Assembly (NCBI RefSeq): GCF_009914755.1 | Contig: NC_060943.1 | Source: the human T2T-CHM13v2.0 reference genome, Homo sapiens | DNA: 64,000 bases | Direction: 5' to 3' (one strand) | Part shown: piece after piece, positions 1 to 32,280 of the stretch | How the letters are laid out: each line of letters starts with the position of its first letter | Position numbering within the stretch: position 1 is the stretch's first letter | Made by a program: the position numbers and the translations under genes | Notes under the pieces: model-generated | Databases searched by the model: none | Told to the model about the DNA's origin: nothing | The model's input: only the letters and a program-made list of their open reading frames with translations

Positions 1-53
1 AGTTCACCAGGACACCCCAGTATTTCAAGCCAGGAATGCCCTTCCACTTTCGG
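1..53 (+). pseudogene. C3P1: C3P1 exon (C3 ex10-equivalent, 3' part)
   Basis: FTRTPQYFKPGMPFHFR resembles C3 FTKTPKYFKPGMPFDLM; donor gtcaga at 54. Confidence 0.85.
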
Positions 54-691
54 GTCAGAGTCTGGACTCACTACACCCAGGGACTCAGGGCCCCCTCCCC
101 AAAGCAGACTTCCCACAAAGAGACAAAAACCCACACTGGACTCACCTGCATCCAACTCATCTGAAGGTTGAGTCTATCATGTTCCCCAGACTAATCCCAG
201 AGTCCCCCCAAACCTTAACCCTAAAGCACAGTGATGGCTCCAGAATTTCTCTGTGGGGACTTAGAGGCCACAATCAGGCTGGAAGTTGGTGTTTGAAAGT
301 TTATCTAGAGGCTGCATTTGCACATCAAAGCATGGCCTTTTCACATATATTAATTTGGATGGGCATTAGGAAAGTCAGGGATATCCTTTGGCACCAATCC
401 TACTCCAAGTCTCCTATAGGCTCTCATGTGTCCTCCTTCCCTCTCCACTCTCAGTCTTCCCACTCACCATCAGCTCTGCAACACCCAGGATAACCACATG
501 TGGTTGTACACTGCAAAGCTCTAGGAGGTGCCATTCATAAAAACTCCAATATGAATGGTGCCCCCGGTGTTGTTTAGTGCACCATGTATAAAGTTGTACA
601 AAGCAGTCCTATTCAGATCATATTCCAGTCTCACCTCTCACACCAGGCCACTGCAGGCTTTTCCTTCACCTTACCCCAGATTCCACCTCAG

Positions 692-832
692 GTCTTCATC
701 TCAAATCCTGATGGGTCCCCAGCTTCCAGAGTCCTTGTCCACTCCCAAGACCAAAAAGTGTACACCTCAGCTGAGGGGTTGGCCACTCTGACCATCAACA
801 CAGATGCAAATCTGGACAAGCTCCCCATCGAG
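692..832 (+). pseudogene. C3P1: C3P1 exon (ex11-eq)
   Basis: VFISNPDGSPASRV...LPIE; ag/gt boundaries. Confidence 0.9.
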
Positions 833-918
833 GTACCAACTTGACAAGGCAAGGAGGGTGGGATTAGAGCTGTGTGAGTTGGAAGGGTTGGGGTTTACTT
901 GCCCATCATCCTCCCTAG

Positions 919-1128
919 GTGAAAACTGAGGAATCTCTTCAGCCAGAGGAGCAGGCTTCAGCCAAGATGACAGCTTGGCCTTACTTGACTCAGGATGGGT
1001 CAGGAAACTTCCTACACATCGAAGTAAAGACATTGGGCACAGAGGTTGGCAGCAGCATCCAGCTGAGCCTCAACACAAGGCATCAGGACCCTAAAACCAA
1101 GGACAAGATTACTCACTTCACCATCCTG
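919..1128 (+). pseudogene. C3P1: C3P1 exon (ex12-eq)
   Basis: VKTEESLQPEEQA...ITHFTIL; 210 nt; ag/gtgagg. Confidence 0.9.
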
Positions 1129-1355
1129 GTGAGGGGCTAGGACCAGGGTCTGAGTCAAGGAATTCTTTCCTTGGAAAAACCTTGGCTTGCTGAGTTGGAG
1201 AAACTATGAAAAAAGATGTGAAGGTGGCAACAATCTTGAGTGGGCTCAGATCTAGAGGCTGAAGAAAAGAGACTATGAGCCTCCATTGTGGGATGGGACA
1301 GATTCAGAGAAAGACTGGCCCTCCCTTCTCATCCTTGACCTCCCTTGTCTTCAAG

Positions 1356-1565
1356 GTCCTGAGTAAGGGCCAGACCGTGAGTGCCAAACATCAGTCAAAA
1401 AGCCAGGGGAGTGTCTACACATCAGCCATTATTGATGTGACTTCAGCGATGCTGCCCTCCTTCCGCATTCTGGCCTTTTATTTACTTCCCAGAGGAGCAA
1501 GCCAAGACCCTGAGTTGGTGGCTGATTCCATATGGATTGATGTGAATGACAGATGCATAGGGATG
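1356..1565 (+). pseudogene. C3P1: C3P1 exon (ex13-eq)
   Basis: MLPSFRILAFY...LVADSIWIDVNDRCIGM; donor gtaag. Confidence 0.92.
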
Positions 1566-1854
1566 GTAAGCCAAACTCCTTGTAGTTGTGCATCACCATC
1601 ATAAAGCCCCAGAAAGGGGCTGTACAAGTTTAGGCATTCCCAAACTAGAAGCCAGGGAAGAGAAGGAGAATATGTGGCCTTAAGAGCTCAACACAAGGTG
1701 TGGCGGTGATGCAAGTAAATAAATATACGGAGTTGGGATTAGCCTAGTGGAGTTCCCAGATGCTCCACCAGAGCAGTAGGGAACGTAAGCCTGAAAGTGT
1801 AGTTGTGTGGTCTATGATTCCCTTTTTCTGACATCTCTCTTTTTCTTGGCTCAG

Positions 1855-2016
1855 CTGAAAGTTGGCTTGAAGAATGATAGATTCTTCCAGTCTTTGGAGC
1901 CCAACAGCCAAGTCGAACTGAAGGTGACAGGTGATGCAGAAGCCACAGTGGGGCTGGTGGCTGTGGACAAGGCTGTCTATGTCTTGAACAGCAAACACAA
2001 GCTCACTCAGAAGAAG
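1855..2016 (+). pseudogene. C3P1: C3P1 exon (ex14-eq)
   Basis: VGLVAVDKAVYVLNSKHKLTQKK; donor gtaag. Confidence 0.92.
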
Positions 2017-2278
2017 GTAAGAGCATGTGGGCTTTGGGCCAAGATGTTGCCAGGATATTCTAGCTGGAGCCTCAGCTTCTTCAGCCATAAAGAGGACAAC
2101 ATCAATGTAAGGATTCAAGGAGATGGTGCAAAGTCTAATGACTGAAAGGTGATAAGAGCTCAAAAAATGGGAGATAGTATGAGAATTATGATTTGAGCCT
2201 GCAATTCCAGTACACCATTTCTCCTTTCATGGAGGAGTCATACAGGTCCCAAATCCAGGTTCCTGTCTTGACCTCTAG

Positions 2279-29830: not shown

Positions 29831-29920
29831 CCCGGAGGTGCAGCACTTTCTACAACCTGCCCACAGAGCAATCTTCCCTGAGAAAGATCTGCCACAAAGA
29901 CATCTGCAGATGTGCAGAGG
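29831..29920 (+). pseudogene. C3P1: C3P1 exon (ex37-eq)
   Basis: RCSTFYN...LRKICHKDICRCAE; 90 nt. Confidence 0.93.
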
Positions 29921-31154
29921 GTGAGATGTGCCGAGGGTGAGCCCCATGCCACCAGGCTGGGGCTGCCAGGTTGTGGGGGGCGGATCCAGGAGCCCTTCAA
30001 GCCTCCTCCTGGCTGTAGTCTGGCCTGAGTTTAGACAGAAAGAGAAAGAGACAGAGGCAGAGGCAAAGAGAGACAGAAAGAAGGCACAGAGAGACAAAGC
30101 TTGTCACACACACATACTCGCACTGCCAAAGATCAAATGACACGGAGACAGAGAGAAAGACACAAAGAGACGAAGACGGGAGAAATAGACAAGAAAGTGA
30201 CCAAAAAGAGAGACAGACACTGGGCATGGTGGCTCATGCCTGTAATCCCAGCACTTTGGGAGGCCAAGGCGGGAGGATGGCTTGAGGCCAGAAGTTCCAG
30301 ACAAGCCTGGGCAACACAGTGAGACCCCATCTCTACCAAAAAATTTTTTTAAAAAATTAGCCAGGAGTGGTGGTAAGTACCCGTAGTCCCAAATACTTGG
30401 GCGGCTGAGGCGGAAGGATCAGGAGTTGGAGACTGTAGTGAGCTATGCTTGTGCCACTGCACTCCAGCCAGGGTGATACAACAAGACCTTGTCTCAAAAA
30501 TAAATTTAAAAAGCCGGGCTCAGTGGCTTACACCTGTAATCCCAGCATTTTGGGGGCCAAGGTGGGTGGATCACTTGAGGTCAGGAGTTTGAGACCAGCT
30601 TGGCCAACATGGTGAAACTCCATCTCTACTGAAAATACAAAAATTAGCTGAGTGTGGTGGTGCATGCCTGTAGTCCCAGCTACTCAGGAGACCGAGGCAT
30701 GAGAATTGCTTGAACCTGGGAGGTGGAGGTTGCAGTGAGCTGAGATCACAGTGCATTCCAGCCAGGGCAACAGCACGAGACTCTGTCTCAAAAAATAAAT
30801 AAATAAATAGGCCAGGTATGATGGCTCACACCTGTTGTCCCAACACTTTGGGAGGCCGAGGTGAGAGGATTGCTTCAGCCCAGGAGTTTGAGACCAGCCT
30901 GGGCAACATAGTGAGAGACCCCAACTCTTAAAAATATAATAATAATAAGAGAGAGAGAGAAGAAAAAGAAAGGAAGGAGGAAGGAAAAAGAAAAGAAAAA
31001 GAGAGAGAGAGAGACAGAGAGAGAGCCCCACAGACCAGAAGGGCCAGATCCGGAGACCCAGGCCTGGGGGCTGAAGGGAGGGAGGGTGGGGGGTGATTGG
31101 GAGGAAGTGCCCTGTCCCAGCACCGCCAGAGCAGCTGCCCTCCTGACCCTGCAG

Positions 31155-31241
31155 GACAGTGCCCATCCCTGCAGAAGCCCAGTGGCCAATTGAGGCAGGA
31201 GGAGCTCCAGACAACAGCATGTGAGGCAGGCGTGGATTTTG
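31155..31241 (+). pseudogene. C3P1: C3P1 exon (ex38-eq)
   Basis: GQCPSL...TACEAGVDF; donor gtgagt. Confidence 0.9.
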
Positions 31242-31320
31242 GTGAGTGTGGGGAGCCACAGGGGACAGGCAGAGCCCACCTGCAGGCCGAATGCCAACAT
31301 GACACCCTCCCCTTCCCCAG

Positions 31321-31410
31321 TGTACAAGACAAAGCTGGAATCTGTGGAGGTCTCTGCCTCCAACCCTTACGTCTATTACAACACGCAGCTCGAAGACATC
31401 ATTAAGAGTG
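31321..31410 (+). pseudogene. C3P1: C3P1 exon (ex39-eq)
   Basis: VYKTKLE...EDIIKSG. Confidence 0.9.
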
Positions 31411-31530
31411 GTATGTCCCAGGTGACAAAGAAGGAATCCCAGTGTGGGGTCACCCTGGGGGCCCACCCTGGGGGTCCCATTGTGTGGGAGGGTCAGACCT
31501 GTGTATGTGCACACACCGGGTTTTCTCCAG

Positions 31531-31666
31531 GTACGGACCCTGCCACACCCCTGGCCATGAAGAAATTCGTCTCCCATGCCACTTGCCATGACTCCCTGGG
31601 GTTGCAAGAACAGGAATCGTACCTCATCATGGGCCAGACGTCAGACCTGTGGAGAATCAAATCTGA
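31531..31666 (+). pseudogene. C3P1: C3P1 exon (ex40-eq)
   Basis: [15 protein letters not shown]...[11 protein letters not shown]; 136 nt. Confidence 0.92.
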
Positions 31667-32147
31667 GTGCGTGAGGGGTTCCACCTGTCCTGGGGACTCA
31701 GGCCTGGGCCTTCTTGCCTACCCTCAACCCAGCCCTCAGTTCCACAATTTTTGCTGGAGATTTCAAGCAATTCTCCTGCCTCAGCCTCCCAAGTAGTAGC
31801 TGGGACTACATGCGTGTGTCACCACACCGGGCTAATTTTCGTATTTTCAGTAGAGACAGGGTTTCATCATGTTGGCCAGGCTGGTCTTAAAACTCCTGGC
31901 CTCAAGTGATCCACCCACCTCGGCCTCCCAAAATCACGGGGTTGCAGGCGTGAGCCACCGCACCCGGCCAGGGAAGCATTTACTAATTCCCAGTGATTTG
32001 GACTAAGAGGCTGGAAGATCAGAGAGGGCCCTCGGGTGTGGACACTACAGGCTAAGGCTCTGGCAGGCTGTCAGACAGGGCAGGGAGGTCCCCATATCCC
32101 CAGGGGCACCAGGCTCTCCTCACCTTCTTGCTTCTTGTAACCCACAG

Positions 32148-32280
32148 TTACAGCTATGTTCTGGGCAAGGAGACGTTCCTCATCCTTTGGCCAGCAGATG
32201 GAGATGCCAGCAAGAAAGAATTGCGGGACCAACTGGAGGAATTTTTGGAATATATGCGCACCCACGGCTGCCAGTCCTGA
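32148..32280 (+). pseudogene. C3P1: C3P1 terminal coding-like exon (ex41-eq)
   Basis: YSYVLGKETFLILWP...HGCQS*, resembling the C3 C-terminus FGCPN*. Confidence 0.92.

What the first reader, a model, noticed from the sequence alone, without database searches (positions are those of the whole stretch)
1..32280. C3P1 reconstructs as a nearly intact, anciently diverged C3-family gene, possibly a recently lost complement-family protein
Seen: 32 exons splice to 3,903 nt (1,301 codons) with every phase compatible, no frameshift, two nonsense codons, one GC donor and an intact AATAAA. The protein differs from C3 at most positions while keeping the structural motifs. Inference: high protein divergence with so few disabling lesions implies long purifying selection and a recent loss. 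This would be a separate C3/C4/C5-family gene that may still be functional at the syntenic position in other mammals.
Basis: partly seen in the sequence, partly recalled or inferred. Interest (0 to 1): 0.85.

Follow-up and report, generated by a model that had tools for sequence, protein, structure and literature searches.

The report
Lost ancient sibling of complement C3
Human C3P1 is the broken copy of a separate complement-C3-like gene that is predicted intact in macaques, pigs, dogs, bats, elephants, marsupials, turtles and amphibians, likely split from C3 before sharks diverged, and was likely lost in African apes, so many mammals would carry a C3-type immune protein that humans lack.

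Summary
In detail: 32 in-window exons give 3,903 nt, with no frameshift, two stops, one GC donor and AATAAA. The whole gene has 41 exons starting 4.1 kb upstream. It reads as 1,658 aa, 93.9% identical and ungapped to a macaque protein, and 40.7% identical to human C3, with all 40 intron phases shared.

It is less intact than claimed: two upstream splice acceptors are broken, and the GC-donor exon is skipped in human transcripts.

Of 107 therian hits, 57 cover at least 95% of the model; three fused models place RDH8 upstream. The clade reaches lungfish and is sister to all other sampled jawed-vertebrate C3. Constraint relaxed roughly 5–20 My ago, near the human–gorilla ancestor.

The clade keeps thioester Cys/Gln but has CPEQ/CVEQ and no catalytic His, and therians lack the convertase Arg. 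It is likely a convertase-independent, amine-reactive thioester protein; this is untested. Orthology to fish C3.2 was not supported. Ten literature searches found no account of this lineage.

The parts
1..53 (+). In-window end of exon 10 (whole exon -62..53). Exons 1-9 lie upstream of the window in locus L005 (chr19 = window + 10,168,000): -4130..-4060 (ATG, hydrophobic leader), -3923..-3716, -3264..-3090 (acceptor broken, AA), -2875..-2805, -2665..-2577, -2489..-2407, -2165..-2078, -635..-533 (acceptor broken, AC), -433..-313
   Evidence: C3 has AG at both introns
692..2016 (+). Exons 11-14 (692-832, 919-1128, 1356-1565, 1855-2016): beta-chain macroglobulin domains, codons 376-616
2279..2408 (+). 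Exon 15 (linker), followed by a GC donor (GCACAG); skipped in the RefSeq transcript and in P0001, which causes a frameshift
3266..3343 (+). Exon 16: premature TAG at 3268-3270 (Trp661 in gorilla, macaque and most orthologues) and the RHRR furin-type site
4559..5048 (+). Exons 17-18 (4559-4756, 4937-5048): anaphylatoxin-like domain with six Cys; LHLG-T-T in place of C3's LGLAR-S; acidic alpha'-NT
5332..10851 (+). Exons 19-23 (5332-5417, 5526-5665, 8234-8440, 10538-10589, 10765-10851): MG6-MG7-CUB part
11007..11210 (+). Exon 24: thioester motif GCPEQ at 11081-11095; absent from the RefSeq transcript
13482..20575 (+). Exons 25-30 (13482-13557, 13828-13996, 16793-16882, 17035-17188, 20041-20213, 20417-20575): thioester domain and CUB; Met (13982-13984) at the position of C3 His1126
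23810..29920 (+). Exons 31-37 (23810-23869, 26055-26145, 27197-27242, 28522-28609, 28866-28952, 29213-29318, 29831-29920): CUB, MG8, anchor; premature TGA at 28535-28537 (Arg1392)
31155..32280 (+). Exons 38-41 (31155-31241, 31321-31410, 31531-31666, 32148-32280): C345C domain; natural stop at 32278-32280
32341..32346 (+). AATAAA polyadenylation signal

Best explanation
C3P1 is a disabled 41-exon human copy of a separate C3-subfamily gene whose orthologues are predicted intact across most mammals, turtles, amphibians and lungfish; it likely arose from C3 by whole-gene duplication before sharks diverged, was likely lost near the human-gorilla ancestor, and where intact likely encodes a secreted thioester protein that would bind amine groups without C3-convertase activation. 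Shown: gene structure, five human lesions, the clade and its motifs. Inferred history (about 0.9): unitary-type pseudogene, split from C3 before the shark/bony-vertebrate divergence, constraint lost about 5-20 My ago. Inferred mechanism (about 0.4), step by step: (1) a liver-made, signal-peptide-bearing precursor is cut by furin at RxRR into two disulphide-linked chains; (2) the Cys-Pro-Glu-Gln thioester forms and is shielded by MG8; (3) without His1126/Glu1128 it reacts slowly and prefers amines, as C4A and alpha-2-macroglobulin do (recalled); (4) therians have Thr where C3 has the scissile Arg, so C3 convertases would not cut it and no C3a-type peptide is released; activation would come from slow tick-over/aminolysis or from a non-tryptic protease cutting the conserved (Q/K/R)LLLG loop; (5) it then tags protein-rich targets covalently and would be turned over at the retained factor-I-type Arg sites.
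For: Model 1,556/1,658 identical and ungapped to macaque P0003. 662/1,627 identical to human C3; 40 of 40 intron phases shared, 35 of 40 in the same alignment column. 57 of 107 therian hits cover at least 95%, at 60-94% identity to C3P1 and at most 42% to C3. RDH8 is fused upstream in 3 models. Clade support 99/96, sister group 100/98; same topology under the mixture model on 16 rows (97/95) and with full-length outgroups. Duplication after the shark split rejected, p = 0.005 and 3e-5. Human branch 56 vs macaque branch 33 polarised changes, p = 0.019; at sites at least 95% conserved, 12 vs 2 (Fisher p = 0.07). In 785 residues: human-only 12, gorilla-only 17, ape stem 12. Motifs in 56 clade members: thioester Cys, Glu and Gln 55 of 55 with the exon; Pro1007 55 of 55; MG8 Tyr1447 and Tyr1482 55 of 55; Met1400 55 of 56; His1126 0 of 56; Glu1128 0 of 56; Thr at Arg748 in 40 of 40 therians; six anaphylatoxin Cys 56 of 56; Arg1320 in 33 of 35 placentals. 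Roles of Pro1007/Pro1020 and His1126/Glu1128 from a passage of PMC6983669. Human C3P1 RNA was measured in liver tissue (PMC6914412 passages).
Against: No orthologue was shown to be expressed or secreted. All are database gene models, and the sheep liver 'complement C3-like' genes in PMC8699643 could not be assigned to this clade. Pro in place of Gly1011 might block thioester formation. The residue aligned to C3 Phe1069 (recalled as thioester-shielding) is Ser or His in most placentals, and Pro1020 is replaced in 7 of 55. The deep root could reflect long-branch attraction: no shark, coelacanth or ray-finned member was found, so a pre-shark origin needs three losses or missed sequences; the mixture-model runs with one outgroup dropped did not finish. 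Dating uses recalled neutral divergences and one gorilla isoform model. Zero frameshifts is somewhat low for 12 My (P about 0.04 with an assumed indel rate), which favours a younger date or separate losses in gorilla and human. His loss also recurs in canonical-clade duplicates (P0181, P0188, P0192, P0132), which I left out of the 12 canonical controls.
Confidence: 0.75

Rival explanations
1. Same history, but the thioester never forms (Pro or Val at the Gly position). The protein is a constitutive C3(H2O)/C3b-shaped ligand or decoy that binds factor B, factor H or complement receptors and tunes the alternative pathway.
For: Gly1011 is replaced in 55 of 55 clade members with the exon; there is no catalytic His and no convertase Arg in therians; the C-terminal Cys-x-x ending, acidic alpha'-NT and factor-I-type Arg sites are kept.
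Against: Cys, Glu, Gln, Pro1007 and the MG8 shielding residues are invariant or nearly so from lungfish or amphibians to placentals, whereas thioester-less C5 has lost Cys and Gln. Amphibian and lungfish members keep the scissile Arg.
Confidence: 0.25
2. Same history, but the protein works like alpha-2-macroglobulin or CD109: a microbial or leukocyte protease cuts the LLLG loop as bait and is caught by an amide bond.
For: No catalytic His, as in the macroglobulins (recalled). The hydrophobic LLLG loop is conserved in therians and turtles where C3 has LAR-S.
Against: It keeps the anaphylatoxin domain with six Cys, the C345C domain and the two-chain furin site, and has no long variable bait. Its best PDB sequence match is C3 at 1,286 bits, against about 265-272 bits for alpha-2-macroglobulin and CD109.
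Confidence: 0.15
3. C3P1 is the tetrapod orthologue of ray-finned fish C3.2 (zebrafish c3.7/c3.8), which was reported to damp inflammation.
For: C3.2 has Val at the same thioester position (PMC7768046 section 26), as do turtle and lungfish members. That paper places C3.2 apart from a cluster holding shark, coelacanth and tetrapod C3, the position my trees give this clade.
Against: Seven unnamed GCVEQNLA representatives, taken as C3.2 by motif and length, nest inside ray-finned C3 (support 100; 98 with four of them). Joining them to the C3P1 clade gives AU p = 0.035. Their identity as C3.2 is inferred.
Confidence: 0.12
4. The human locus still acts, through a short ORF or as a liver lncRNA.
For: It is transcribed, and lower expression in liver cancer goes with worse outcome (PMC6914412 passages). 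The RefSeq exon chain has ORFs of 363 and 321 aa.
Against: These ORFs are fragments without the leader or the thioester exon. Changes on the human tip match the neutral expectation, 12-13 against 12-14. The cancer data are correlations.
Confidence: 0.08
5. An ordinary pseudogene copy of C3, dead in all species.
For: The RefSeq name. Fragmentary models occur in several mammal groups.
Against: 57 near-complete ORFs, a tree that follows the species tree from lungfish to primates, and AU p = 2e-47.
Confidence: 0.01

Closest known systems
Complement C3 (human, chr19, about 3.5 Mb away)
   Same: 41 exons, 40 of 40 intron phases, full domain order, furin site, six anaphylatoxin Cys, 23 of 27 Cys, thioester Cys/Glu/Gln
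   Different: 40.7% identity; CPEQ instead of CGEQ; no His1126/Glu1128; no Arg748-Ser749 in therians; Cys1389/1458 and Cys1637/1646 lost as pairs (pairing recalled); separate clade since at least lungfish
Complement C4A and alpha-2-macroglobulin (His-less thioesters)
   Same: No catalytic His, so amine-preferring chemistry is predicted (recalled from the C4A/C4B work)
   Different: Sequence and tree place it with C3, not C4 or A2M
Complement C5
   Same: C3-family paralogue with a changed thioester site and the same domain plan
   Different: C5 lost the thioester Cys and Gln but keeps an Arg cleavage site and an anaphylatoxin; this clade does the reverse in therians
Fish C3 variants without the catalytic His, and ray-finned C3.2 (zebrafish c3.7/c3.8)
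   Same: CVEQ variant and no His (PMC7768046, PMC6983669)
   Different: Not joined to this clade in my trees, so likely convergent
Primate unitary pseudogenes such as GULO, and the lost paralogue MBL1
   Same: Long-established gene, few lesions, lost in the primate or ape lineage (MBL1 passage in PMC12165806)
   Different: No mouse orthologue appeared in my hit lists, which would hide it from mouse-referenced screens such as PMC2864566

Membership tests
C3/C4/C5 thioester-protein subfamily | MG1-8, anaphylatoxin, CUB, TED and C345C domain order | tested here: met
   Pfam set of P0003; full-length alignment to C3
C3/C4/C5 thioester-protein subfamily | Shared exon-intron plan | tested here: met
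   41 exons, 40 of 40 phases
C3 subfamily | Groups with C3 to the exclusion of C4 and C5 | tested here: met
   outgroups named by PDB match
Canonical C3 orthologue | Nests with tetrapod C3 | tested here: not met
   separate clade; AU tests
Canonical C3 orthologue | GCGEQ thioester motif | tested here: not met
   GCPEQ in 88, GCSEQ in 1, no motif in 18 (mostly partial models) of 107 therian hits
Canonical C3 orthologue | Catalytic His1126/Glu1128 | tested here: not met
   0 of 56
Canonical C3 orthologue | Convertase Arg-Ser site releasing an anaphylatoxin | tested here: not met
   Thr in 40 of 40 therians, Lys in 5 of 5 turtles, Arg in 9 of 10 amphibians and in lungfish
Canonical C3 orthologue | Tetra-basic furin site | tested here: met
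   first Arg 56 of 56, last Arg 55 of 56
Active thioester protein | Cys-Gln thioester actually formed and reactive | not testable with these tools
   Residues conserved; needs biochemistry
Unitary pseudogene | Disabled in human, with intact syntenic orthologues | tested here: met
   five lesions; 57 near-full models; RDH8 linkage in 3 models, downstream neighbours not tested
Unitary pseudogene | No intact second copy in the human genome | tested here: met
   Genome searches gave only this locus, C3 and more distant family members; both are floors
Unitary pseudogene | dN/dS below 1 on deep branches and near 1 after the loss | tested here: inconclusive
   Amino-acid proxy agrees; no orthologue DNA available
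Ray-finned fish C3.2 | One clade with C3.2 | tested here: not met
   AU p = 0.035 with unnamed stand-ins; borderline

The most novel reading that the evidence does not exclude
Most mammals, including macaque, pig, dog, cattle and rabbit, circulate an undescribed fourth C3/C4/C5-class complement protein, older than the shark split: a His-less CPEQ thioester protein uncoupled from the convertases. Humans, gorillas and probably mice lack it, so it is a hidden variable in primate and pig models of complement disease and xenotransplantation.
Probability: 0.45. Interest if true: 0.88.

Novelty: new variant of a known kind. Interest (0 to 1): 0.72.

Why it matters
The vertebrate thioester complement set is usually given as C3, C4 and C5, and PMC7768046 states that a single C3 gene persisted in humans. 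This locus shows a further C3-type lineage, conserved from lungfish to macaque, whose orthologues are filed under the names 'complement C3', 'C3-like' or 'venom factor-like' and so are easily taken for C3 in livestock and primate data. Its chemistry is predicted to differ from C3's. If the protein circulates, it is a species difference between humans and common large-animal models, an unlisted ape gene loss, and a natural test of what the thioester Gly, the catalytic His and the scissile Arg each do.

Tried and rejected
Orthology to fish C3.2: attractive by motif, but not supported by the trees. Recent duplicate of C3: rejected. Duplication within bony vertebrates or sarcopterygians: rejected under LG+G4.

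The first exon model had a one-base error at exon 37 that gave a false frameshift; it was fixed. Human C3 exon 33 was likewise fixed.

Mixture-model trees with one outgroup dropped did not finish. ESM Atlas gave only generic family names. Promoter words upstream of the ATG were read without a chance control and are not used as evidence. No structure or complex prediction was run: the fold is settled by sequence, and no suitable partner chain was on hand.

Literature: ten searches found no account of C3P1 orthologues. One search listed 40 of 92 papers; most subscription journals are not held. The one supplement of PMC10195156 had no hit. PMC6886504 supplements list C3P1 as a high-ranking PhyloCSF region (rank 77), classed as a known pseudogene; two files were not searched. 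Earlier scan findings were not available.
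Full report
Observation. Translating the annotated exons showed C3-like frames with several exons missing from the RefSeq chain. A search with one exon (1356-1565) returned 95 proteins among 114 candidates; most named ones are mammalian 'complement C3' or 'C3-like' entries, and hits were 69-100% identical to the exon. Using macaque P0003 (1,658 aa) as guide, I mapped 32 exons in the window and nine more upstream from an ATG at -4130. The read-through protein is 1,556/1,658 identical to macaque with no gaps.

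Lesions. The GC exon is skipped in the RefSeq chain and in P0001, which equals that chain's 321-aa ORF (the end of the first RefSeq exon was assumed at -313). RefSeq also omits the thioester exon. The human locus cannot make the full protein.

Relation to C3. I rebuilt human C3 from the genome (1,663 aa, 41 exons). C3P1 is 40.7% identical to it, and codon-position DNA identity is 0.55/0.63/0.41, so third positions are close to saturation. All 40 intron phases match, 35 in the same alignment column. This is an old DNA-level duplication of the whole gene.

Orthologues. Three protein searches gave members in Old and New World monkeys, lemurs, tarsier, treeshrew, hare, squirrel, beaver, bats, carnivores, pangolins, ungulates, whales, Afrotheria, Xenarthra, marsupials, turtles, caecilians, salamanders, frogs and lungfish. 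Of 107 therian hits, 57 cover at least 95% of the model, at 60-94% identity to C3P1 and at most 42% to C3; several are redundant models of one species, and 50 are partial. Three models (star-nosed mole, desman, sheep) begin with a domain matching the human RDH8 exons at -28312..-20067, the upstream neighbour. No mouse, rat, bird, squamate, crocodile, monotreme, coelacanth, ray-finned or shark member appeared. The lists were capped at 120, so this suggests loss but does not show it.

Age of the split. Trees recover one clade from lungfish to human that follows the species tree (FastTree; IQ-TREE 99/96). Rooted on partial human C4 and C5, it is sister to all other sampled jawed-vertebrate C3, sharks included (100/98; mixture model on 16 rows 97/95). 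Full-length outgroups from the representative library, named by PDB match as C5, C4-type and a basal C3, gave the same result. AU tests reject a mammalian duplicate (p = 2e-47), a sarcopterygian one (5e-6) and a post-shark one (0.005 and 3e-5). The firm minimum is the lungfish-tetrapod ancestor. The pre-shark date is model-based and needs unseen or lost members in three lineages. The two genes share a chromosome in human, and the listed longest-contig sizes suggest the same in lungfish and a caecilian, which hints at a local duplication.

Fish C3.2. PMC7768046 (passages and sections 20, 23, 26 read) describes a ray-finned C3.2 with Val at the thioester Gly. PMC4057122 (passages) reports that knocking down zebrafish c3.7/8 raises neutrophil migration. 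Turtle and lungfish members share CVEQ, so I tested orthology. Unnamed GCVEQNLA representatives nest within ray-finned C3, and forcing them onto the C3P1 clade gives p = 0.035. Orthology is not supported, though only weakly rejected.

Age of the loss. Polarised with primate outgroups, the human branch has 56 changes and the macaque branch 33 (11 ambiguous; p = 0.019); 12 against 2 fall on sites at least 95% conserved (Fisher p = 0.07). The gorilla model P0002 keeps Trp661 and exons 8 and 15 but leaves frame near residue 1019, a lesion human lacks. Over its 785 aligned residues there are 12 human-only, 17 gorilla-only and 12 ape-stem changes. With recalled neutral divergences, 12-14 are expected on each tip and 30-35 on the stem; the whole-protein estimate is 12.5 My (5.5-20). 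So the tips look neutral and the stem constrained. No lesion is shown to be shared, so one loss in the African-ape ancestor and two parallel losses both remain possible.

Anatomy and mechanism. In 56 chosen clade members (35 placentals, 5 marsupials, 5 turtles, 10 amphibians, 1 lungfish), these are kept: the furin site, the six anaphylatoxin Cys, the interchain Cys pair, thioester Cys/Glu/Gln, Pro1007, the MG8 Met/Tyr/Tyr (shielding role recalled from the C3 crystal structure), basic residues at both factor-I-type sites, and the Cys-x-x C-terminus. These are lost: Gly1011 (Pro, Val, Ala or Ser), His1126 and Glu1128 (0 of 56), two Cys pairs, and, in therians and turtles, the Arg at the convertase site. 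PMC6983669 (passage) names Pro1007/Pro1020 as needed for thioester formation and His1126/Glu1128 as setting binding specificity. That His-less thioesters prefer amines is recalled knowledge of C4A and alpha-2-macroglobulin. The best reading is therefore a secreted two-chain thioester protein that tags amine-bearing targets slowly and, in therians, independently of convertases and without an anaphylatoxin. The rivals are a thioester-dead decoy and a protease trap. None has been tested. Liver expression is known here only for the human pseudogene RNA (PMC6914412 passages).

Prior knowledge. The locus is annotated as a transcribed C3 pseudogene and appears in liver-cancer lncRNA lists (listing; PMC8705536 passages). 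PhyloCSF flagged it (PMC6886504 supplement row). Ten searches of the open library found no description of the orthologous lineage; subscription papers and unseen supplements could hold one. PMC5489563, PMC12165806, PMC8699643 and PMC2864566 were read as passages only; PMC10195156 as a supplement search only.

Verdict. It is a new variant of a known kind: a C3-subfamily member that fails four defining tests of canonical C3 (clade, GCGEQ, catalytic His, convertase site). Interest 0.72.

Noticed in passing
P0119, P0178, P0175, P0166, P0177, P0189, P0190 (trees): A third tetrapod C3 lineage (echidna, turtles, caecilian, newt, toad) keeps GCGEQ and the catalytic His but shows no Arg-Ser at the convertase site; it is sister to canonical tetrapod C3.
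   Followed up: partly
P0004, P0018, P0028, P0054, P0055, P0066, P0075, P0088, P0108, P0049, P0051: Only fragmentary or exon-lacking models appeared for colobines, callitrichids, cats, pinnipeds, marmot and some toothed whales. These may be further independent losses or poor gene models.
   Followed up: partly
L005, window -4278..-4213: TATA-like, HNF1-half, NR5A2-like and FOXA-like words lie just upstream of the ATG, while RefSeq starts at -436; the RefSeq model may be 5'-incomplete. No chance control was run.
   Followed up: no
human C3 locus (L006-L011), donor after exon 29: Functional human C3 itself uses a GC donor (GCAAGT), closer to consensus than the GCACAG of C3P1 exon 15.
   Followed up: yes
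window 8234-8440, 11007-11210, 17035-17333, 29831-29920: The RefSeq transcript uses an internal donor in exon 21, skips exons 24 and 37 and reads through the exon 28 donor although these sites are canonical, which suggests decayed splicing control.
   Followed up: no
P0002 (gorilla): The gorilla model has RRRH at the furin site, starts at Met188 and lacks exon 11; it is one isoform model, so these may be lesions or annotation choices.
   Followed up: partly
window 50556-51461: SHFL (+) and ANGPTL6 (-) overlap at their 3' ends according to the hub annotation.
   Followed up: no
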